A stretch of 64,000 nucleotides of DNA from Candidatus Yonathbacteria bacterium RIFCSPLOWO2_01_FULL_47_33b (GTDB lineage: Bacteria; Patescibacteriota; Minisyncoccia; Phycocordibacterales; UBA1550), in the NCBI GenBank assembly GCA_001823575.1, contig MHUW01000016.1, forward strand, positions 2,099-66,098, written 5' to 3'. This document shows, in pieces, positions 10,623 through 45,937 of this stretch. Below the pieces are notes generated by a model. That model was not told where the DNA came from, made no database searches, and worked only from the letters and a program-made list of their open reading frames with translations. The position numbers were made by a program, and so were the translations under genes. Position 1 is the stretch's first letter, and every line of letters starts with the position of its first letter.

Positions 10623-10660
10623 TAGGAGTTAGCCAATAGCTTCTAAATACTAGTGACTAA
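10623..10660. repeat. Six TA(G/A) triplets phased every 7 nt across the ileS stop/recO start spacer
   Basis: TAG/TAA at 10623, 10630, 10637, 10644, 10651 and 10658. Contains CTATTGGCTA on the minus strand, as in the 1516-1546 spacer. Confidence 0.45.
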
Positions 10661-13600
10661 TAGCGAAGGTAAAGGGTATCCCATCAATATCGGTTCTTTC
10701 ACCCACAACCTCGATAAACACAATATCTTTAAGGAGTGCAGTTTTTTTGAGGTCTGCGCTAAACTCTTCGACAAGCGCGCGCCCTTCGTCGTTCGTCGCG
10801 ACCTCGAGTGTCACCATGTCGGCGGGAGTAAGGCCGGTCTTTTTACGGAGCTCCTGTACGGTGCGCACCAGGTCGCGGAATTGTCCTTCACGTTTGAGCT
10901 CGGGGGTGATAACGATATCGAGAGAAACCTCTTGTTCAGCTGTTTCTGTAAAAATAACTTTTTTAACATTGAGTTCGTCGGTAATAATAGACGACAGTGC
11001 AGAATTAAGGACAACGCCCCGCACGGTGACCGAAGCCAGCGGCTGGCGAACCTTGATTCCCGCCTTGGCGCGCGCCTCAAGGGCAAGTGATACGACACGG
11101 CGCACTTCGGCCATATCGGTAAGTATGAGATTGTCAGACACAGAAAACTCTGGCCATGACTCGAGGTGCACACTTTCTTTGTCACCGCCTGCATGAGCGT
11201 AAAGATGTTCCGCAAGGAATGGCATCACGGGTGCGAGTAGTTTTGAAAATTCACGAAGCACGGTGCGTGTCGTTGCAATAGCATTTGCGCGATCATCAGC
11301 ATCGTCCGACTTGAAACGGTCGCGCGAACGGCGGATGTACCACGTTGAAAGATCATCAACAAAGAGGCCTATGGGCTTTGCGGCGCGGTCGAGCTCGTAG
11401 GTATCGAACGAACGCGTCATTTCATTTCCTAGTTCTGCAAGGCGTGCAAAAATCCATTGATCGAGAGGGCTATTACTCTTCCCTTCTTTGCTTTGCGCGG
11501 ATTCTTCGGGATACATTTCGTAAAATGAAAGTACGTTCATTAGTCGCACGATAATCTTTTTTACCACCTCATCAACGCCACGCTCAGAAAATGCCAGATC
11601 CTCGGCGTGCACAATGGGTGACGCAAGCATATAGTACCGCACCGCATCCGCACCATATTTATTCAAAACCTCAATAGGGTCGGGATAGTTCTTGAGTTTC
11701 TTGGACATCTTTTGTCCGTCCTCAGCAAGCACCATGCCGTTCACGATGACGTTTTTAAACGGTGATTTATCAAAGAGCCCCACCGACAAAACGAGCATAT
11801 TATAAAACCATCCACGCGTTTGGTCCACACCCTCGGCGATAAAATCTGCGGGAAAATTCTTTTCAAAAAGTTCTTTGTTTTCAAACGGATAATGAAACTG
11901 CGCGTACGGCATTGACCCCGACTCAAACCAACAGTCAAACACGTAGGGCGTACGCGACATCGTGCCACCGCACGGGCACGAAACAACCACCTTATCGATA
12001 TATGGCCTATGAAGGTCAAATTCAAAATCAGCATTGTGGGGAAACGGCGCAAAAGGAAGCTCGCGCACTTCGCCGGTTAGCAAAAAATCATCTCTGTTTT
12101 CTTTGAGCAATACCGCTTGGTTAACCGTTGCGCCCGCTGTTCCCGCTACCAACATCCACGCGGGGTACTCGTGGGTAACAATAAGTATGGTTTTCCCCGC
12201 ATAGCGCGCTTCGAGTTCCTCGAGAAATGGCATCACCCGGAGCTTTACATCAAGGAGGCACTCTCCTCCGTCGGGACGTTTAGTAAGCTTTTCTTTAATA
12301 GAAGAAAAATTGCCACGATATTCCTCGATAGGTCGTCCATCAAAAATACCCGTGTCGATTTCCTTGATGCGTTCGTCAACAACGATCTGTCGGGTATCGT
12401 AGCCAATAGCAGCAGCAACAATCTCGGCGGTCTCTTTGGTGCGCACAAAGGGCGACGTAACAATGAGGTCGATACGCTCTCCTGTAAGTTTCTTACCTGA
12501 CTCTTCTGCAGAGACGCGACCTTTTTCGGTAAGCGAAAATTCTGCGTTCGTCTCGAGTTTTGAACTTACCACGCCACGTGCATTACTTTGTGCTTCCCCG
12601 TGACGCATTACGAGATAGCGATTACCTGACTTTTTTGTTTTTTCCGCAAGCTCGGCGCGTGAGCCAAACACCTCGCGTTTTTCGCATGAGCTGCAGTGCC
12701 ATACAGGAAGTGGTGCTCCCCAATAGCGTGAGCGTGAGATAGCCCAGTCGCGTGCATTCTCAAGCCACTTACCAAAACGGCCATCACGCATATTCTCGGG
12801 CACCCATGATGTTTTCGCATTTTCTGAAAGAAGTTTTTCTTTGAGTTCGGGCGCGCGCACAAACCACGAACCAGCGGCGTAGTTCAAAAGCGGTGTATCA
12901 CAGCGCCAACAATGAGGGTATGAGTGAATGATTTTTTCTTTTGAAAAAAGTGCGCCCATCCCTGCGAGATGTTTAATGATGAGAATATCGGTTGCTTGAT
13001 GGTCCCCTTTTGGCTTGACGGCGATACCGGCAAAGTCCCGCACTTCGGACTTCATGAGTCCGTCCATACCCACGTGCTGCACAAAAGGAAGCTTCTCGCG
13101 CGTTCCGAGTGCCATATCATCCTCGCCAAAAGCAGGCGCAATATGCACGATACCCGTACCGCTCTCCATCGTTACAAACGACGCGCCATACACCTTCCAA
13201 CCGTTCTCGCGGTGAGCAAGGGCGCCCTGTGACGCGTAATAATCAAAAAGTGGTTTATAGGAGCGACCAGCAACATCAGCGCCGCGCATTGTTTTTATGA
13301 TGCGATGTTCTTTTCCTTCAAATACTTTTTCTACGCGCGCGTTTGCAAGAATATAGCGCTCATCGTTAAGAGCAACTTCTGCGTACTCCTCATCGGGGTT
13401 CACCGCGAGAGCAACGTTGCCGGGCAGAGTCCACGGCGTTGTCGTCCACGCAAGGAGGTAAGTATGTGGCTCATCGGCAAGTGCAAATTTTACGGTCACC
13501 GAGATATCCGTGATATCCTTGTAGCCCTCGGACACTTCATTATTTGAAAGTGTCGTCTCGCAACGCGGGCAAATGTGCATGGGTTTGAACCCTTGATACA

Positions 13601-14111
13601 CGAGCCCTTTATCATGGAGCGTCTTGAACGCCCACCAAATTGACTCGGTATAGTTCGCATCCATCGTGCTGTACGCGTGTTCCATATCGATCCATCGCCC
13701 AAGGCGCGGTATCATTTTTTTCCACTCAGCATCATAACGAAGCACTGACGCACGCGCTGCTTCGTTGAAATTTCCGATACCATAGTCCTCAATATCTTTC
13801 TTGTGCGCAAGACCAAGCTCGGCCTCGATCAAGTTCTCAATCGGCAATCCATGACAATCCCAGCCCCATACGCGGCGTACGTAACGCCCATTCATCGTCT
13901 GATAGCGTGGAATAGTGTCCTTGATCGTGCTGGCGAGTAAGTGCCCATAGTGCGGGAGTCCTGTTGCAAAAGGTGGCCCGTCATAAAAGACAAATTCCTC
14001 CCCGCCCTTTGTTTGTGCAAGAGACTTCTCAAAAACCCCCTGCGATTGCCATGCCGCCAGGGTTTCCTCTTCGCGCTTCGCGATATCAGACTTTTTCTCT
14101 AGTTCGTCCAT
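10650..14111 (-). CDS. ileS: Isoleucyl-tRNA synthetase (type 2/eukaryote-like) carrying an internal histidine-phosphatase (PGAM-like) domain
   Basis: 1153 aa. HYGHLL (HIGH) and KMSKKLKNYPDP (KMSKS) motifs. CP1 editing domain. Conserved FDCWFESGSMPYAQFHYPFEN...DQTRGWFY block. Inserted RHGEAQSNARG...SPFVRTKETAEI...LIVTHEY domain at about aa 497-685. Confidence 0.9.
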   Translation of the reverse strand: MDELEKKSDIAKREEETLAAWQSQGVFEKSLAQTKGGEEFVFYDGPPFATGLPHYGHLLASTIKDTIPRYQTMNGRYVRRVWGWDCHGLPIENLIEAELGLAHKKDIEDYGIGNFNEAARASVLRYDAEWKKMIPRLGRWIDMEHAYSTMDANYTESIWWAFKTLHDKGLVYQGFKPMHICPRCETTLSNNEVSEGYKDITDISVTVKFALADEPHTYLLAWTTTPWTLPGNVALAVNPDEEYAEVALNDERYILANARVEKVFEGKEHRIIKTMRGADVAGRSYKPLFDYYASQGALAHRENGWKVYGASFVTMESGTGIVHIAPAFGEDDMALGTREKLPFVQHVGMDGLMKSEVRDFAGIAVKPKGDHQATDILIIKHLAGMGALFSKEKIIHSYPHCWRCDTPLLNYAAGSWFVRAPELKEKLLSENAKTSWVPENMRDGRFGKWLENARDWAISRSRYWGAPLPVWHCSSCEKREVFGSRAELAEKTKKSGNRYLVMRHGEAQSNARGVVSSKLETNAEFSLTEKGRVSAEESGKKLTGERIDLIVTSPFVRTKETAEIVAAAIGYDTRQIVVDERIKEIDTGIFDGRPIEEYRGNFSSIKEKLTKRPDGGECLLDVKLRVMPFLEELEARYAGKTILIVTHEYPAWMLVAGTAGATVNQAVLLKENRDDFLLTGEVRELPFAPFPHNADFEFDLHRPYIDKVVVSCPCGGTMSRTPYVFDCWFESGSMPYAQFHYPFENKELFEKNFPADFIAEGVDQTRGWFYNMLVLSVGLFDKSPFKNVIVNGMVLAEDGQKMSKKLKNYPDPIEVLNKYGADAVRYYMLASPIVHAEDLAFSERGVDEVVKKIIVRLMNVLSFYEMYPEESAQSKEGKSNSPLDQWIFARLAELGNEMTRSFDTYELDRAAKPIGLFVDDLSTWYIRRSRDRFKSDDADDRANAIATTRTVLREFSKLLAPVMPFLAEHLYAHAGGDKESVHLESWPEFSVSDNLILTDMAEVRRVVSLALEARAKAGIKVRQPLASVTVRGVVLNSALSSIITDELNVKKVIFTETAEQEVSLDIVITPELKREGQFRDLVRTVQELRKKTGLTPADMVTLEVATNDEGRALVEEFSADLKKTALLKDIVFIEVVGERTDIDGIPFTFAISH

Positions 14112-25482: not shown

Positions 25483-28400
25483 CTAATTCGTCTTCTGGTC
25501 GGGTATCGTCGTTGCACCCGTGCTCGTTGCGGTGTCACTTGGCGCAACTACGAGTGGCGCAGACGAAACGACATTTACCGTACGCTCTGCGGTCGTCGTG
25601 GCGTTGTTTTGGTCAACGACTGAATACACAATCGTGTGTATGCCTTCTACGGAAGTATCGAGACTTATCTGACTAATGTCCAACTCTGGTCCCCCGTCGA
25701 GCGATGCTTTGATGCCAAAGTTTTTAGCAGACTCCGGTGCGGTAATGAGTGCACCAAGGTCGCCGTAGATATCGCCGATACTGAGTGTGGCAGGGTTGTT
25801 ACCGTTTATGAAAATTATGATGGGGGTTGTCGTTGCCGTAGTGATCTCTGTCGTTAAGATACCACTCACCGTGGTATTGCCAGAAAGAAGCAAGTCTAAC
25901 TGATCTTTAGTAATACAGGTCTCATTCCCCGACTGTCCAACACAAATCTTTTCTTCAGCGTGAAATTCTTTTCCGCGAAATACCCTCGCAACGACCTCCC
26001 CAATTCCATTCGCCGTGTCCGCAAGCCACCCCGTCATCCGATCAAAGAACCTCCCTGCAAAAGTCTTGCCTCCTGTCGTATCAGTCATTGCCGTCGTCGT
26101 AGACGCAAGTCCTTCAAGATTGAGGTCAAGCTCCTTGAGTCCTTGCAGGGTTAAAATAGGGAGCATTGAGTAGTTGACCCCGAGGTAACCGTTTGAGGTG
26201 GTAGCTACCATCCCAGGGAGTACCCGTGCAACGTCCTGTGCGATCAGACCATAGTTGAGAGTAGTGGTGGAGTTATGGAGTTCGTTTCCTGCTATATCGT
26301 TCCAGTAGAATGTTGAAGGAGTGAGCTTGGTGAGGTCTGCCAAGACACTCCCCATCGGCTGGATGTTGGTCTTGAGGGTTGCGTCAGACGAACACACCCC
26401 CGTAAGCGCCGTACCCGCAAAGTTTTCCACACAACCGTTAGTTCCCGAGGTCCCCACACGAATGTCACCTACAACCTGCAAAGATTTTGCAGGTGCTGCG
26501 GTGCCGATGCCGACGTTGCCAGTGTTCCTTATGGTAAAGAGCGTCGTTGTTGCGCTTGCAGTTGAACTTGCAATCGCAAAGAGGGTAGTATTATTTTCAC
26601 CATTGTACGCATGCACGGAGAGTTTGGCGTACGGCGAAGTAGTCCCCATACCAATGCGTCCGCTGGATTCAATGAGTGATGGAGTATTGTTATCAAAAAG
26701 CTGTCCACCGGCAGCAACTGTGCGCGAGATACTGGTCCCATCCATTCGAGTTACATTGTACAAACGCACCACGGAATCCGCGGTCATATTCAAATCGACG
26801 CCGTATGTCCCACTCGTGTGATTGATGTTACCATTTCTTATGACTACATTCGCAGTACTAACATCAATCCCCCTCCCTGTGCCAGAAGAATTTTCGTCAA
26901 TAAGCGATAGATTGTTTATCTCATAGTCACCAATTGACCCTCCTGCCCCAATCACAATAGCTCCTTTTGTTGGATTGGGGCCGATGCCGTGCCTCACCGA
27001 AATATTATTCAAGATCTTTTTGTGGGTATTCCCGCCGGTTGAATAACTATTCATGTATACAAACAAAGCTTCATTATAACCATCGTTATCAATAGACAAA
27101 TTATCTACCCGAACATAGTCTCCAAACAGACGGAGTGCGTGCTCTACTTCTCCTTTAACAACAATATCTGATGCAACAATCCCTGAAAGCGAACCATTAT
27201 CAAAAATGATCGAATTAGAAGACCGCCATTCAATATTTTTAAGCCGCAGGAACGAAAGACCGTCATCTTGGTTTGGCCACAGATAGGTGTCTGAATCCCC
27301 ATTAATAAGTCGCACATGAGAAACAACATTCATGATAGAAAAGTAACCAAACAATGGAATTGCCAATGCTCCATTCATGGCAGGAAGAGTATCTGTAGTG
27401 CCTACGATGTGGTTATTCTGTCCATCAATGGTAATATCAGCTCCTTCGGGCAATCCAACGTCCAGCCCAAGGGGCGTTTCTGCGTCCAGCAATACAATTC
27501 TGTAACGCACCGGCCTTCGAATAACCAAAGGGACATTTGACTGCGATGCCCCAAAAATACCCGTCGCCAAGGTGATGTTCTCGGGGGTAATTGCAGCGTC
27601 AGTTCGCAAGATAGGATAGTTATGTGTGGTATTCTCGCCGCCAACTCCATCGAGAGCAACCATCGCATCATTAGTCACATAGAGAAGATCTCCTGATCGC
27701 ACATCTGCGTTAGCACTACACACCACGCGATTGCTTCCACTCGTCAGGGTACATGTAATCCCCGTATTGGTCACCGTGGTATAGGTATCTCGGGCGGAAA
27801 TATAATCCAACGCATCCTGAATTGTCGCAAAACGACCACCAGTACCTACGGTTAGAGTGTTTGCTGCCGTGGCGCCAACACACGTACCGTTTGCATCCTG
27901 GAAGCATCCCGAGGAAATTTGAATGCCGCCCGAAAATGTCGATGTAGATACACTCGTGCCGGTAAAATAGGACGACACAGTTTCGCCTACTACGGAGAGT
28001 GCGGCGTATGGTGATGTGGTGCCGATGCCGACCTTGCCGGTCGCACGATACACATCACTACCCGAAAGGGTCCAACTTCCGACTGAGCCACCAATAACCG
28101 AGCCTGCCCAATAAAGGTTGCCGGAGTTACTGTAGAGTCTGTTGGTGGTGACACTTGGTGCGGAGACATCGGCAAGGTAGGTGACACCATTCACCGCAAA
28201 GGTGTCTGAGGGGGTGGTGGTGCCGACACCGAGGGTGGTAAAGGAGCCCGTGGAGCCTACGAGATCACCCGACATGGAGCCACCTGCTGTAGGGAGGTAC
28301 CCCGCGATGGTTGTGCCGGTAATAGAAGCACCGGTGATGGTGGGCGACGAGAGGGTGACCGAAGAGAGGTTGTTGATGCGGTTCATTGGTGCCATCGCGA

Positions 28401-28800
28401 GGTAAAGGGCATTGTTGTCGGCCACTGCTTGGGTTTTGCCTCTCGCAATCTCGTTTAAAAGTTCACTACGGAGAGCGGTAATCTGAGTTTCAAGGTCAGC
28501 GGCTGTAATACCGGAAAGAACGCGTGTGTTTGTCGTAGGAGCAGGAGTAACGACGACTTGAGCCGTAGGTCGAGTAGGTGTCATCGACTTGGGAGTCGAA
28601 CTCCCAAGTGATGCTGGCTGTGGTGCGCGTGCTTGCGGAGTTACGGGAAGGGTTGTCGCTGGTTGAACTGGAACAAAGTCCCGACCTTCGGGAGTACCCG
28701 CAAGATCGGGACTTTCAGATGTAGGTGTATTAAAAAGATTATTCCAGAAATCTTGTACCGCGGTGTACACCGAGGCAGCTTGTGTTCGCAATGGAGACAA
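25483..28800 (-). CDS. Giant surface protein with phage tail-fibre-like architecture: P/T-rich linker, GxGTTSPxAxLSV tail-fibre motifs (x2), beta-helix-like repeats, peptidase S74/intramolecular-chaperone domain, C-terminal Ig-like (DUF5011-like) domain
   Basis: Repeated VGIGTTSPYAALSV and IGMGTTSPYAKLSV motifs. IAQDVARVLPGMV...VNYSMLPILTLQGLKELDLNLEGL matches the endosialidase-chaperone (S74) domain. C-terminal DGGPELDISQISLDTSVEGIHTIVYSVVDQNNATTTAERTVNV is Ig-like. The true N-terminus is probably the signal peptide beginning at 28919 (see findings). Confidence 0.75.
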   Translation of the reverse strand: MSPLRTQAASVYTAVQDFWNNLFNTPTSESPDLAGTPEGRDFVPVQPATTLPVTPQARAPQPASLGSSTPKSMTPTRPTAQVVVTPAPTTNTRVLSGITAADLETQITALRSELLNEIARGKTQAVADNNALYLAMAPMNRINNLSSVTLSSPTITGASITGTTIAGYLPTAGGSMSGDLVGSTGSFTTLGVGTTTPSDTFAVNGVTYLADVSAPSVTTNRLYSNSGNLYWAGSVIGGSVGSWTLSGSDVYRATGKVGIGTTSPYAALSVVGETVSSYFTGTSVSTSTFSGGIQISSGCFQDANGTCVGATAANTLTVGTGGRFATIQDALDYISARDTYTTVTNTGITCTLTSGSNRVVCSANADVRSGDLLYVTNDAMVALDGVGGENTTHNYPILRTDAAITPENITLATGIFGASQSNVPLVIRRPVRYRIVLLDAETPLGLDVGLPEGADITIDGQNNHIVGTTDTLPAMNGALAIPLFGYFSIMNVVSHVRLINGDSDTYLWPNQDDGLSFLRLKNIEWRSSNSIIFDNGSLSGIVASDIVVKGEVEHALRLFGDYVRVDNLSIDNDGYNEALFVYMNSYSTGGNTHKKILNNISVRHGIGPNPTKGAIVIGAGGSIGDYEINNLSLIDENSSGTGRGIDVSTANVVIRNGNINHTSGTYGVDLNMTADSVVRLYNVTRMDGTSISRTVAAGGQLFDNNTPSLIESSGRIGMGTTSPYAKLSVHAYNGENNTTLFAIASSTASATTTLFTIRNTGNVGIGTAAPAKSLQVVGDIRVGTSGTNGCVENFAGTALTGVCSSDATLKTNIQPMGSVLADLTKLTPSTFYWNDIAGNELHNSTTTLNYGLIAQDVARVLPGMVATTSNGYLGVNYSMLPILTLQGLKELDLNLEGLASTTTAMTDTTGGKTFAGRFFDRMTGWLADTANGIGEVVARVFRGKEFHAEEKICVGQSGNETCITKDQLDLLLSGNTTVSGILTTEITTATTTPIIIFINGNNPATLSIGDIYGDLGALITAPESAKNFGIKASLDGGPELDISQISLDTSVEGIHTIVYSVVDQNNATTTAERTVNVVSSAPLVVAPSDTATSTGATTIPDQKTN

Positions 28801-28862
28801 AAGTCTGCTTTGCGCAGGTGTAGGAGTTTCTGCTGCAAAACTTACGGGAGACTTATAGAGTA

Positions 28863-28871
28863 CCCCCCCCC
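28863..28871. repeat. Homopolymeric C9 (G9 on the coding strand) tract within the 5' end of the tail-fibre-like gene
   Basis: Nine consecutive C read directly. One extra base (10) would fuse MNPRRVIFVLTLSLILGGG (ATG 28917-28919) in frame with the 1105-aa ORF. Confidence 0.7.
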
Positions 28872-28948
28872 GAGGATGAGTGACAACGTAAGGACAAAAA
28901 TAACTCTGCGAGGGTTCATATATATGAGTATACTAAATGCGTATGACG

Positions 28949-28977
28949 GGTGCAAGAAAAATTATTTTTTGCACCCA
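28949..28977 (-). terminator. Hairpin gggtgcaa-gaaaaattatttt-ttgcaccc downstream of pgi
   Basis: 8-bp stem with an A/T-rich loop and flanks, ~100 nt after the pgi stop. Confidence 0.4.
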
Positions 28978-29075
28978 TCTACGTAACCCTCCTTTCTTGT
29001 TTCTCGCTAACACGTATTCTAAGTCATGACTACAAATAGGTTACGAAAAGGATACATCTCATAGCCATAGTAATA

Positions 29076-43570: not shown

Positions 43571-45937
43571 TTACTGCCACTTCCAGTTGAGAATCTCGGG
43601 GAGGTCCTCGCCGTGCTTGTTGATGTATTCTTTGTGCTCGATGAGTTTATCCTGCATCATTTGCTTGAGGTACGCACCCTTTGATTCAAACTTGGGCAAA
43701 CGGCCGACGACATCCATCACGAGATGGTAGCGATCCATGTCATTAAGAACCGTCATGTCGAAGTTTGTCGTAATGGTTCCCTCTTCCTTGTAGCCACGTA
43801 CGTGGATATTTTTATGATTGTTTCGTCTGTACGTAAGGCGGTGAATAAGCCATGGGTAACCATGAAAGGCGAACATAACTTGTTTGTCTTTCGTAAAGAG
43901 CGAATCAAAGTCAGTGTCACTCAGTCCGTGTGGGTGCTCAGATTGTGGCTGCAGTTTCATAAGGTCGACAATATTCACCATACGAATTTTTATTTCAGGG
44001 ATATGTTCGCGCAAAATCATAATAGCAGCAAGAATCTCTCGCGTTGGCACATCACCGCAACTCACCATGACAACATCGGGTTCAGCACCTTGGTCATTAC
44101 TTGCCCACGACCAAATACCAACGCCCTCAGAGCAGTGCCTTACCGCAGCATCCATAGAGAGCCATTGCGGTGCTTGATATTTACCGGCAATCACCACATT
44201 CACATAGTGACGGCTACGCAAACAGTGGTCGTAGACAGAGAGAAGGCAGTTCGCATCGGGAGGAAGGTACACGCGCACCACCTCAGCTTTTTTATTGACC
44301 ACCGTATCAATAAACCCTGGGTCCTGATGCGTGAAACCATTGTGTGCCTGCTGCCACACGTGTGATGCGAGCAGATAATTGAGTGATGCGAGTTTTCTGC
44401 GCCATGGTAGTTTCAAGGTTACCTTGAGCCACTTTGCATGCTGATTGAACATTGAGTCAACAATATGTATGAATGCCTCATAACTGTTAAAGACCCCGTG
44501 ACGCCCCGTAAGGAGGTAGCCTTCTAGCCACCCCTCACATTGATGTTCACTCAACATTTCCATTACCCTCCCGTCTGTTGAGAGAAATTCATCACCCTCT
44601 TGTGTTCGCGCATTCCACTGACGATTAGTAACATCAAATATCGAGTTCAGCCGATTAGAGAGTGTTTCATCTGGCCCAAAAATCCTGAAATTGCGAGCTT
44701 CTTTATTGAGCTCGATGATGTCGCGGAAAAATCCTCCAAGAATTTCAGTGTCTGCGGCTAAAACTGAACCAGGAGAAGGGACGTCTACGGCATATTTTTC
44801 AAAATCAGGAAGAATGAGGTCTTTAAGGAGTAGCCCTCCGTTAGTATGAGGATTGGCACCCATTCTGCTCTGCCCCTTCGGCGCGAGCTCGGCAAGTTCA
44901 GCTATGAGTTTTCCCTCTTCATCAAAAAGCTCCTCGGGGCGATAACTCTTCATCCACTGTTCAAGCTGCGCAAGATGCTCTGGATGTTTGCGGTCTATAG
45001 AAAGTGGTACCTGGTGCGAACGGAAGGATCCCTCGTTGGGTAGTCCGTCAACTTCCTTTGGCCCCGTCCAGCCCTTTGGTGTCTGGAGAACAATCATTGG
45101 CCAACGTGGGCGTGACGCATCTCTGTGGACGCGCGCATGTTGTTGTATCCGTTTAATTTCACTGATAGTCTTGTCGAGCACAGCAGCCATTTGCTGATGC
45201 ACAATTTCCGAGTCGCTACCTTCGACAAAATACGGCTCCCATCCATACCCACGAAAAAGCTGTTCAAGTTCCTCGCGTTCGATACGTGCAAAAATGGTGG
45301 GGTTTGCAATCTTATATCCGTTCAAGTGGAGGATCGGGAGCACGGCGCCATCGGTGATGGGATTAAGAAATTTATTTGAATGCCATGAGGTAGCGAGTGG
45401 CCCCGTCTCTGCTTCACCGTCACCTACCACGCACGCAACCACGAGATCGGGGTTATCAAAAACAGCGCCAAAAGAATGACTAAGTGAGTACCCAAGCTCC
45501 CCCCCCTCATGCATAGAACCAGGGCACTCGGGAGAGACGTGACTCGGAATACCACCAGGGAAAGAAAACTGTGTAAAGAGTTTTTTCATCCCCTCTTCGT
45601 CCTGACTAATGTTTGGGTAGGTCTCGGTATAGGTTCCCTCAAGATACGTGTTTGCCACCAGTGCAGGCCCGCCGTGCCCTGGACCCGAAACATACAGCAT
45701 ATTGAGGTCAAAATTCTTGATGACGCGATTGAGGTGTACGTAAATAAAATTCTGTCCCGGTGTTGTCCCCCAATGCCCGAGCAAGGTTGGCTTCACGTGT
45801 GAAAAATCAAGTGGTTTTTTAAGGAGCGGGTTATCAAAGAGGTAAATTTGTCCCACCGACAAATAATTCGCGGCATGCCAATAAGCATCCATCTTGCGGA
45901 GGAGTTCAGGAGAAAGTGGTTTTTCTATGGTGTGCAT
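43571..45937 (-). CDS. xfp: Xylulose-5-phosphate/fructose-6-phosphate phosphoketolase
   Basis: 788 aa. N-terminus [15 protein letters not shown]...[10 protein letters not shown] and GPGHGG are canonical XFP signatures. Confidence 0.95.

What the first reader, a model, noticed from the sequence alone, without database searches (positions are those of the whole stretch)
28801..28919. Poly-C9 tract separates a perfect signal peptide from a 1105-aa tail-fibre-like surface protein
On the minus strand, an ATG at 28917-28919 encodes MNPRRVIFVLTLSLILGGG. The GGG codons come from the G9 run. This frame stops 8 codons later. With G10 it would read straight into the large ORF, giving MNPRRVIFVLTLSLILGGGVLYKSPVSFAAETPTPAQSRLLSPLRTQAAS..., a textbook Sec signal peptide with an SFA|AE cleavage site. 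The annotated ORF otherwise starts at an internal Met with no export signal, although its domains (tail-fibre repeats, S74 chaperone, Ig-like) are extracellular. This is either a homopolymer sequencing error or a slipped-strand phase-variation switch controlling expression of a candidate adhesin.
Basis: seen in the sequence. Interest (0 to 1): 0.7.

Follow-up and report, generated by a model that had tools for sequence, protein, structure and literature searches.

The report
Poly-G on/off switch, CPR surface protein
A run of nine G's in the export-signal region of a large tail-fibre-like surface protein gene of an ultrasmall groundwater bacterium (Candidatus Yonathbacteria) puts the gene out of frame here, while near-identical genomes from other samples carry ten G's and an intact gene, and a second copy of the gene family varies the same way, so this looks like a classic slipped-strand on/off switch in a bacterial group where none has been described.

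Summary
On the minus strand an ATG (28919..28917) opens a signal-peptide-like ORF that enters a G9 run (28871..28863) and stops 6 codons later. One more G fuses it to a 1126-codon ORF.

The 1145-aa fusion is not hypothetical. It is encoded with G10, 100% identical, on at least three fetched contigs from other assemblies. One differs from the window over 7.1 kb by that single base only, and the others by that base plus 2 SNPs.

A paralogue elsewhere in the same genome shares the promoter-like element, leader and tract. It occurs as G10 (ON), G11 (OFF) and G8TGG (OFF) in contigs at least 99.9% identical. One sample has locus A ON with B OFF, and another has both ON. Different pipelines agree on tract length within a dataset.

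The best explanation is slipped-strand phase variation of two paralogous, secreted, tail-fibre-like proteins (S74 chaperone plus Ig-like domains) in a CPR bacterium. The genes appear to be expressed from leaderless mRNAs.

The main rival is homopolymer read or assembly error, which I cannot exclude without reads. The mechanism is well known (as in Neisseria and Campylobacter). What is new is the phylum and the paired-paralogue arrangement.

The parts
28927..28955 (-). Promoter-like element: TTGCAC (28955..28950), a 17-nt spacer, then TATACT (28932..28927). It lies 7 nt upstream of the ATG, which implies a leaderless mRNA.
   Evidence: Read from the sequence. Homology between the two paralogous loci begins exactly at the TTGCAC, 36 nt upstream of the ATG. 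A TAnnnT box 5-9 nt before start codons is enriched in this genome, 19 observed vs 3.8 expected. The consensus scanner did not call it because the -35 matches only 3 of 6 positions.
28842..28919 (-). Leader ORF as it reads in this window (OFF state): 25 codons, MNPRRVIFVLTLSLILGGGYSISLP, then TAA at 28844..28842.
28834..28919 (-). Signal-peptide coding region as read in the ON (G10) allele: n-region MNPRR, h-region VIFVLTLSLILGGGVLY, c-region KSPVSFA, with cleavage predicted after SFA before AE.
   Evidence: Sequence and Kyte-Doolittle window maximum of 2.46. The identical N-terminus is found in the intact proteins P0122, P0127, P0001 and P0125. No SignalP-type predictor was available.
28863..28871 (-). 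Homopolymeric G9 tract (C9 on the plus strand), the proposed slipped-strand switch. G10 is in frame; G9 and G11 are out of frame.
   Evidence: G9 in the window and L001/L010; G10 in L004, L005 and L006. The paralogue has G10 (L007, L008), G11 (L009, L012) and G8TGG (L003).
25483..28863 (-). Body of the tail-fibre-like surface protein gene: 1126 codons in the +1 frame relative to the leader, intact and 100% identical to the ON allele.
   Evidence: PHROG tail-fibre hits.
26206..26388 (-). Peptidase_S74 / intramolecular chaperone auto-processing (ICA) domain.
   Evidence: Pfam PF13884, E = 6.6e-11, above the curated cut-off. Foldseek best hits are MyRF ICA 7dc3 and endosialidase chaperone 3gw6. 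An S-D-A-T-L-K motif is read by eye.
25570..25809 (-). C-terminal bacterial surface Ig-like domain (DUF5011 type).
   Evidence: Pfam PF16403, E = 3.7e-06. pLDDT is 84-96 in the model. Ig/PKD/Rib fold matches.
28916..28978 (-). 20-codon upstream ORF (MGAKNNFSCTRHTHLVYSYI) with a strong SD (AAGGAGGG, 8-nt spacing). Its TGA overlaps the leader ATG (ATGA). It is present at this locus only and its role is uncertain.
   Evidence: It is absent at the paralogous locus, where the HicA stop codon lies 43 nt upstream of the ATG.

Best explanation
The G tract is a real, hypermutable simple-sequence repeat inside the signal-peptide coding region of a gene for a large secreted or surface tail-fibre-like protein of a Candidatus Yonathbacteria (Parcubacteria, CPR) bacterium.

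Proposed mechanism, step by step:
- Transcription probably starts at a TATACT box 7 nt upstream, giving a leaderless mRNA whose 5'-terminal AUG is the only efficient start (inferred).
- With G10 the ribosome reads through the Gly-Gly-Gly of the hydrophobic core into the 1145-aa protein, which is exported (reading frame shown; export inferred).
- With G9 or G11 translation ends after 25 or 22 codons. No SD-led internal start exists, and any internally started product would lack the export signal, so the gene is OFF (frames shown; lack of expression inferred).
- Slipped-strand mispairing during replication changes the tract by +/-1. The population therefore carries ON and OFF cells (polymorphism between samples shown; rate and reversibility inferred).

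A paralogue with the same promoter, leader and tract cassette but a different central domain varies independently. This gives combinatorial surface states, plausibly tuning attachment to host cells or evasion of phages that use the fibre as a receptor (inferred).
For: (1) The frame arithmetic is verified.

(2) The exact predicted fusion protein exists. P0122 (1145 aa) is 100% identical and is reported on 5 contigs.

(3) The ON and OFF contigs are the same strain. L005 vs the window shows 0 mismatches and 1 gap, the tract, over 7108 bp. L004 and L006 show 2 SNPs plus that gap.

(4) The paralogous locus B sits in a different context (HicA upstream, BipA downstream) but has the same leader, 95% identical over 233 nt. 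It carries G10, G11 and G8TGG in contigs 99.93-99.98% identical. Apart from one cluster of 5 SNPs about 4.4 kb downstream in L003, the only differences lie at or next to the tract.

(5) The two loci vary independently: ERZ27254767 has A ON and B OFF, and ERZ27254752 has A ON and B ON.

(6) Tract length is reproducible within a dataset across pipelines. JGI 3300025323 matches ENA ERZ27254767 at both loci, and JGI Ga0209541 matches ENA ERZ27254752. Within one pipeline (ENA k141 contigs) the length differs between samples.

(7) As a control, a G8 tract inside the XFP phosphoketolase gene yields the identical intact protein on at least 6 long contigs. No other homopolymer of 6 or more bases in the compared 9.4-kb regions differs.

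(8) The leaderless architecture is typical of this genome, and no SD precedes the internal starts.

(9) The gene product is of the surface or host-interaction type: S74/ICA and Ig-like domains and PHROG tail-fibre hits. Most distant homologues have N-terminal signal or TM segments.
Against: - No reads could be inspected. Within-sample heterogeneity, switching rate and reversibility are all unobserved.
- Poly-G runs of 9-11 are the most error-prone context in short-read data, and the G8 control is shorter than the tracts in question.
- Two of the locus-B differences (a C>G substitution 3 nt before the tract, and a T inserted within it) are not classical slippage products and could be error signatures.
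- Agreement between pipelines on the same reads does not exclude systematic read error.
- The tract itself is not statistically unusual, and GGG is a common codon.
- Only one species-level population with two loci was found. No related species carrying the leader was recovered.
- The adaptive role is pure inference.
Confidence: 0.62

Rival explanations
1. Homopolymer sequencing or assembly error. The true sequence is always in frame (G10) at both loci, and the G9, G11 and G8TGG consensus calls are artefacts of short-read chemistry or consensus building at long G runs.
For: All sequences are metagenome assemblies, and reads were not available. The differences are confined to the tract and its immediate neighbourhood. 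They include a flanking substitution and a T insertion that look more like error than slippage. Assemblies of the same sample share the same reads, so their agreement does not exclude systematic error.
Against: - Consensus calls from deep coverage seldom carry indel errors.
- G9 at locus A recurs on contigs of different lengths and sources: 66.5, 68.8, 69.3 and 79.5 kb from NCBI, ENA and JGI.
- The same pipeline gives different lengths in different samples, and the two loci disagree within one sample.
- The G8 tract in XFP is stable.
- Even if some calls are wrong, a G tract of 9 or more in a 5' coding region is intrinsically slippage-prone in every bacterium studied (established knowledge of contingency loci).
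Confidence: 0.22
2. The length differences are real but do not form a switch. They are ordinary strain-level frameshift mutations (incipient pseudogenisation of dispensable surface-protein genes) at a mutational hotspot, fixed in sub-populations, with no selected or reversible role.
For: The G11 allele at locus B is linked to a private SNP, and the G8TGG allele has an interrupted tract, as expected for distinct haplotypes. No evidence of reversibility is available.
Against: - The 1126-codon body downstream of the frameshift is completely intact and identical to the ON allele. There has been no decay.
- Both +1 and -1 states occur around the same in-frame length at two loci.
- The same cassette is retained in both paralogues.
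- In practice a hotspot that toggles a surface gene ON and OFF is phase variation, so this rival differs mainly in whether selection maintains it.
Confidence: 0.12
3. The out-of-frame arrangement is decoded as it stands. Transcriptional slippage of RNA polymerase on the G9 run, or programmed +1/-1 ribosomal frameshifting, yields full-length protein from the G9 allele.
For: Long homopolymers can provoke RNA polymerase slippage (established for A/T runs of 9 or more). The tract lies just 48 nt into a probably leaderless mRNA.
Against: - In-frame G10 alleles exist in the same strain, so the out-of-frame state is not conserved.
- Out-of-frame states occur in both directions, G9 and G11.
- There is no recognisable frameshift stimulator.
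- Slippage might give leaky expression but cannot be the designed decoding mode.
Confidence: 0.04

Closest known systems
Neisseria pilC poly-G phase variation (own knowledge: Jonsson et al. 1991), and Neisseria/Haemophilus contingency loci in general. Phasome surveys PMC5953494 and PMC5084427 were found in searches but not read in full.
   Same: A homopolymeric G tract lies within the signal-peptide coding region of a surface or adhesion-associated protein gene. Changes of +/-1 G shift the frame between full-length and truncated product. Two paralogous copies vary independently.
   Different: The organism is a free-living-habitat (groundwater) CPR/Patescibacteria bacterium, not a mucosal pathogen. 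The mRNA is probably leaderless. The protein is a phage-tail-fibre-like ICA-domain protein. Switching rate and reversibility are not measured here.
Campylobacter jejuni poly-G/C contingency genes (review PMC8355987) and the general survey of homopolymeric tracts in prokaryotes (PMC2831843). These are cited from their titles and abstracts as listed.
   Same: G/C tracts of about 8-11 nt in the 5' part of surface-structure genes, with tract lengths differing between otherwise identical genomes.
   Different: Campylobacter has dozens of such loci, with experimentally measured rates. Here only two loci are known, and only 64 kb plus flanks of the genome could be scanned.
Hypervariable 9-mer repeat gene in a Gracilibacterium (Sieber et al. 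2019, PMC6851277)
   Same: A CPR bacterium with a slipped-strand-type repeat causing within-population variation in one gene inferred to be important for interaction with its surroundings. This is the only CPR precedent found in the searchable literature.
   Different: That repeat is an in-frame 9-mer array (a PTD repeat) that changes protein length and sequence. It is not a homopolymer that turns the gene ON and OFF by frameshift.
Phage tail fibres/endosialidases with a C-terminal intramolecular chaperone (Peptidase_S74; PDB 3gw6), and the 'tail fiber domain-containing proteins' of Patescibacteria
   Same: S74/ICA domain (Pfam; fold), GxGTTxPxxxLxV-type repeats, and PHROG tail-fibre hits.
   Different: The gene is chromosomal, sits between PGI and a histidine kinase, and has no prophage context. 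It carries a Sec-type leader, and the ICA domain is followed by an Ig-like domain instead of ending the protein.

Membership tests
SSR (homopolymeric-tract) translational phase-variable / contingency locus | Homopolymer of slippage-prone length (about 7-8 or more G/C) inside the 5' coding region | tested here: met
   G9 at codons 17-19 of the leader ORF, 48 nt after the ATG.
SSR (homopolymeric-tract) translational phase-variable / contingency locus | A +/-1 change in tract length toggles between a full-length and a prematurely terminated product | tested here: met
   G10 gives 1145 aa (locus A) or 1197 aa (locus B); G9 gives 25 aa; G11 or G8TGG gives 22 aa.
SSR (homopolymeric-tract) translational phase-variable / contingency locus | Tract-length polymorphism among otherwise (near-)identical genomes | tested here: met
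   Locus A has G9 and G10, with 0-2 SNPs per 6.6-9.4 kb. Locus B has G10, G11 and G8TGG, with 1-7 SNPs per 9.4 kb. This is consensus-level evidence only.
SSR (homopolymeric-tract) translational phase-variable / contingency locus | Length heterogeneity within one population or sample at read level | not testable with these tools
   No access to reads.
SSR (homopolymeric-tract) translational phase-variable / contingency locus | High-frequency, reversible switching in a clonal lineage | not testable with these tools
   The organism is uncultured, and no time-resolved lineage data are available.
SSR (homopolymeric-tract) translational phase-variable / contingency locus | The gene encodes a surface-exposed or interaction-related product | tested here: met
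   N-terminal signal-peptide-like leader, S74/ICA and Ig-like surface domains, and tail-fibre PHROG hits. Localisation itself is inferred.
Sec (type I) signal peptide | Positively charged n-region, hydrophobic h-region of about 10-17 residues, and small residues at -3 and -1 before the cleavage site | tested here: inconclusive
   MNPRR / VIFVLTLSLILGGGVLY (Kyte-Doolittle maximum 2.46) / KSPVSFA|AE, with S at -3 and A at -1. No trained predictor was available, and an uncleaved signal-anchor cannot be excluded.
Peptidase_S74 / intramolecular chaperone auto-processing (ICA) domain proteins | Significant match to PF13884 above the gathering score | tested here: met
   42.8 bits against a cut-off of 22, E = 6.6e-11. 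Foldseek hits to 7dc3 and 3gw6.
Peptidase_S74 / intramolecular chaperone auto-processing (ICA) domain proteins | Ser-Lys catalytic dyad and autocleavage after trimerisation | not tested
   The motif S-D-A-T-L-K was read by eye against the alignment consensus SDxRLKxNI. Cleavage cannot be tested in silico here.
Programmed ribosomal frameshift / transcriptional slippage gene | The out-of-frame arrangement is conserved among relatives | tested here: not met
   In-frame G10 alleles occur in the same strain at both loci.
Prophage tail-fibre gene | Lies within a phage structural gene cluster | tested here: not met
   The neighbours are PGI, DsbA/VKOR, a histidine kinase and a response regulator at locus A. 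At locus B they are FBP aldolase, L25, SLT, HicA and BipA.

The most novel reading that the evidence does not exclude
Patescibacteria (CPR) episymbionts possess true contingency loci. This Yonathbacteria population would use a portable cassette (leaderless promoter, signal peptide and poly-G tract) placed in front of at least two paralogous tail-fibre-like proteins with exchangeable central and C-terminal modules. That would switch host-attachment or phage-receptor structures ON and OFF combinatorially in an aquifer community. It would be the first stochastic phase-variation system described in the CPR, and in a non-animal-associated setting.
Probability: 0.4. Interest if true: 0.7.

Novelty: new member of a known kind. 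Interest (0 to 1): 0.55.

Why it matters
CPR/Patescibacteria are thought to live attached to host cells, but how they recognise hosts is largely unknown, as is how they cope with changing hosts and phages. Large tail-fibre-like surface proteins are among their most conspicuous and least understood genes.

Two such genes appear to be governed by a slippage-prone tract that differs between near-identical populations. This marks them as proteins whose presence is alternately advantageous and costly, as expected for host-attachment or phage-receptor molecules, and it gives a concrete, testable handle on them. Possible tests are tract-length counts in existing read sets, correlation with community composition, and metaproteomics.

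There is also a practical annotation point. The deposited MAG annotates both genes as N-terminally truncated proteins without an export signal (OHA83508.1, OHA84282.1). That hides their extracellular nature.

The full-text searches I could run found no description of homopolymer ON/OFF switching in the CPR.

Tried and rejected
- A homologue search with only the 87-aa N-terminal module returned nothing, not even the known P0001, so it could not reveal further paralogues.
- An exact flank-pattern scan of the GTDB species representatives found no copy.
- A protein-guided scan found only distant relatives without this leader: L013 (Yonathbacteria RIFOXYC2_FULL_47_9, 54% identity, containing N gaps) and a Roizmanbacteria. 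Conservation of the tract in related species is therefore unknown.
- The JGI metagenome scan added one contig (L007).
- Look-ups of P0001 and P0124 found no record.
- The consensus promoter scanner did not report the proposed promoter. That proposal rests instead on genome-wide enrichment of -10 boxes just upstream of start codons and on the boundary of paralogue homology.
- A PDB sequence search and NCBIfam gave no hits.
- The AlphaFold model was poor (mean pLDDT 50). I make no statement about the central domain beyond weak beta-strand content.
- Prophage origin is rejected on gene context.
- Programmed frameshifting is rejected as the main mode because in-frame alleles exist.
- Pseudogene decay is rejected because the downstream ORF is intact.
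- Codon-usage and chance-occurrence arguments for the tract were tested and are not significant on their own.

Full report
**1. The observation.**
- The ATG is at 28919..28917.
- The leader ORF reads MNPRRVIFVLTLSLILGGG and enters a run of nine G (28871..28863; C9 on the plus strand).
- It continues YSISLP and stops at TAA 28844..28842. That is 6 sense codons after the glycines, not 8.
- The large ORF frame is open from 28932 down to the stop at 25483. It has no ATG, GTG or TTG before TTG 28800.

A G9 run is not itself remarkable. Dinucleotide-preserving shuffles give 0.23 per window, and 16 of 100 shuffles contain at least one. GGG is the commonest Gly codon at 29.6%. The tract is interesting for where it sits and how it behaves, not because it exists.

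**2. Organism and context.** The neighbours are housekeeping genes: phosphoglucose isomerase upstream, and two small ORFs plus a GAF-PAS histidine kinase downstream. Homologues are nearly all from Patescibacteria/Parcubacteria.
- The window is identical to ENA scaffold ANAN16-1_SAMN03842437 scaffold_908 (L001, 13,398/13,398 bp).
- The truncated protein is deposited as OHA83508.1 from a Candidatus Yonathbacteria MAG.
- There is no prophage context.

**3. The protein.**
- Pfam finds a Peptidase_S74 intramolecular-chaperone domain and a C-terminal bacterial surface Ig-like domain.
- PHROGs finds tail-fibre families.
- An AlphaFold model built from a 36-sequence alignment was poor overall (mean pLDDT 50), as expected for a monomer model of a probably trimeric fibre. 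It was confident in the S74/ICA and Ig-like parts.
- Foldseek's best PDB matches are the MyRF ICA domain (7dc3), the phage endosialidase chaperone (3gw6) and Ig/PKD/Rib surface domains.
- Most distant homologues begin with a signal-peptide or TM-like segment.

No statement can be made about the central 400 residues.

**4. The decisive comparison (locus A).** The full-length search returned P0001, which begins MNPRRVIFVLTLSLILGGGVLYKSPVSFAAE. Its 90% cluster contains P0122, 1145 aa, which is 100% identical to my in-silico G10 fusion.

The DNA encoding P0122 was fetched from three places in the same PGI/histidine-kinase context:
- L004: ENA ERZ27254767
- L005: ENA ERZ27254752
- L006: JGI 3300025323

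All three carry G10. Against the window:
- L005 has 0 mismatches and a single 1-bp gap, the tract, in 7,108 bp.
- L004 and L006 have that gap plus two SNPs, both about 2.6 kb away.

The OFF form (1095-aa call, P0123/P0124) is listed on contigs of 68.8, 69.3 and 79.5 kb from ENA and JGI, and 66.5 kb in NCBI. Both lengths therefore recur in several assemblies of essentially one strain.

**5. A second locus (locus B).** P0002 begins MVLYKSPVSFAAE, a start called right at the tract. Its contig (L003) lies in a different context: FBP aldolase, L25, SLT, a 72-aa ORF and HicA upstream, and BipA downstream.
- It carries the same leader, 95% identical over 233 nt, with homology beginning 36 nt upstream of the ATG.
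- The two proteins share the N-terminal roughly 300 aa and the C-terminal roughly 390 aa (80% identity) but have unrelated centres.
- In the NCBI MAG both genes are present (A2937_00155 and A2937_03480) and both are annotated in truncated form.

Locus B occurs in three tract states:

| Tract | State | Product | Loci |
|---|---|---|---|
| G10 | ON | 1197 aa (P0127) | L007, L008 |
| G11 | OFF | 22 aa from the ATG | L009, L012 |
| G8-T-GG | OFF | 22 aa from the ATG | L003 |

L008 vs L009 differ over 9,444 bp by one inserted G and one C>G substitution 3 nt upstream of the tract. L008 vs L003 differ by one T inserted in the tract and a cluster of 5 SNPs 4.4 kb away.

**6. Pattern across samples.**

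| Dataset | Locus A | Locus B |
|---|---|---|
| ERZ27254767 | ON (G10) | OFF (G11) |
| ERZ27254752 | ON (G10) | ON (G10) |
| Window / ANAN16-1 | OFF (G9) | not seen |
| NCBI MAG | OFF by annotation | OFF by annotation |

- The JGI assembly 3300025323 reproduces ERZ27254767 base for base at both loci. JGI Ga0209541 reproduces ERZ27254752 at locus B.
- Tract length is therefore reproducible within a dataset across pipelines. It differs between datasets within one pipeline.
- As a control, the only other long G/C tract in the window is a G8 at 45499-45506 inside the XFP phosphoketolase gene. That gene gives the identical intact 788-aa protein on at least 6 long contigs.
- None of the other 10-24 homopolymers of 6 or more bases in the compared regions differs.

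**7. How the switch would work.** Only 8 of 52 genes in the window have an SD-like motif. Instead, a TAnnnT box lies 5-9 nt before start codons 19 times against 3.8 expected. Matches of at least 5/6 to TATAAT occur in 10 of 51 genes against 1.5 expected. Leaderless mRNAs are evidently common in this genome.
- The leader ATG has TATACT 7 nt upstream and TTGCAC 17 nt further up.
- The two paralogues become similar exactly at that TTGCAC. The duplicated unit is therefore promoter plus leader plus tract plus N-terminal module.
- None of the internal candidate starts (28800, 28791, 28770, 28584) has an SD. Any product made from them would lack the export signal.

In the G9 and G11 states, then, the 5'-terminal AUG directs a 25- or 22-residue peptide and the fibre is not made or not exported (inference).

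The tract encodes the Gly-Gly-Gly in the hydrophobic core of the signal peptide. That position tolerates +/-3 nt changes, which is why signal-peptide regions are favoured sites for such repeats in known systems (own knowledge: Neisseria pilC and opa).

**8. Rivals.** The serious rival is homopolymer error. I could not see reads, and G9-G11 runs are the worst case for short reads. The flanking substitution and the T insertion at locus B look more like noise, or like non-slippage mutation, than like slippage. The following points argue against error:
- the recurrence of both lengths in several assemblies;
- disagreement between the two loci within one sample;
- differences between samples within one pipeline;
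- the stable G8 control.

I put error at about 0.2. Real but non-adaptive strain-level frameshifts get about 0.1. The intact downstream ORF, identical to the ON allele, and the occurrence of both -1 and +1 states around the same in-frame length argue against simple decay. Programmed frameshifting or transcriptional slippage as the designed decoding mode is rejected, because in-frame alleles exist in the same strain.

**9. Comparison with what is known.** Mechanistically this is the textbook homopolymeric-tract contingency locus, as in Neisseria, Haemophilus, Campylobacter and Helicobacter (for example PMC8355987, PMC2831843 and PMC5953494, listed).
- Full-text searches combining phase variation with Patescibacteria or 'candidate phyla radiation' found no description of such a switch in the CPR.
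- The nearest precedent is an in-frame hypervariable 9-mer repeat gene in a Gracilibacterium (PMC6851277).
- I therefore class the finding as a new member of a known kind.

**10. Verdict.** Read-level heterogeneity and reversibility remain to be shown. Interest is moderate (0.55). The mechanism is ordinary, but it is found in a phylum where host-interaction biology is an open question, and it is attached to exactly the class of protein suspected to mediate it.

Noticed in passing
window 28916-28978 (-): A 20-codon upstream ORF (MGAKNNFSCTRHTHLVYSYI*) with a strong Shine-Dalgarno (AAGGAGGG, 8-nt spacing), which is rare in this genome. Its TGA overlaps the leader ATG as ATGA, suggesting possible translational coupling. 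It contains the putative -35 and -10 elements and is absent at the paralogous locus.
   Followed up: partly
window 45499-45506 (C8 on +; G8 in the minus-strand gene 43571-45937): The second-longest G/C tract in the window lies in frame inside an XFP phosphoketolase gene. The identical intact protein is found on at least 6 long contigs, so this tract appears stable. I used it as a control.
   Followed up: yes
proteins P0001, P0125, P0129 (assembled from SRR3989344): These are mosaics of the two paralogues. P0001 has the locus-A N-terminus and centre but a locus-B-type C-terminal region of about 170 aa, plus private substitutions. P0125 and P0129 switch between A-type and B-type segments. This is either real recombination or module swapping between the paralogues, or chimeric assembly across shared sequence.
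   Followed up: partly
L008 7487-7513 vs L003 (locus B, intergenic between a 159-aa gene and BipA): Five SNPs are clustered within 27 nt, whereas the remaining 9.5 kb has no substitutions. This is a localised variable patch of unknown meaning.
   Followed up: no
window-wide (start-codon upstream regions): Only 8 of 52 genes have an SD-like motif. TAnnnT boxes 5-9 nt upstream of start codons are about 5-fold enriched, indicating widespread leaderless mRNAs in this Yonathbacteria genome.
   Followed up: yes
window 10650-14111 (-): A 1153-aa class I aminoacyl-tRNA synthetase (tRNA-synt_1 plus Anticodon_1) has a histidine phosphatase (His_Phos_1) domain inserted at residues 500-665, splitting the catalytic domain. 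This is an unusual domain insertion.
   Followed up: no
L009/L012 position 2894 (locus B leader): The G11 OFF allele is linked to an ATC>ATG (Ile>Met) change 3 nt upstream of the tract, seen in both the JGI and the ENA assembly of that sample. It is either a haplotype marker or a poly-G-adjacent read error.
   Followed up: partly
locus B protein P0127, residues ~330-800: The central region differs completely from locus A. It contains a GDSL-like 'AAWGDSLTGG' motif (seen by eye) and hits phage tail-fibre and tail-spike PHROGs (phrog_11419 at 1e-35, phrog_4636 at 1e-17). This suggests an enzymatic (SGNH esterase-like) receptor-modifying module.
   Followed up: partly
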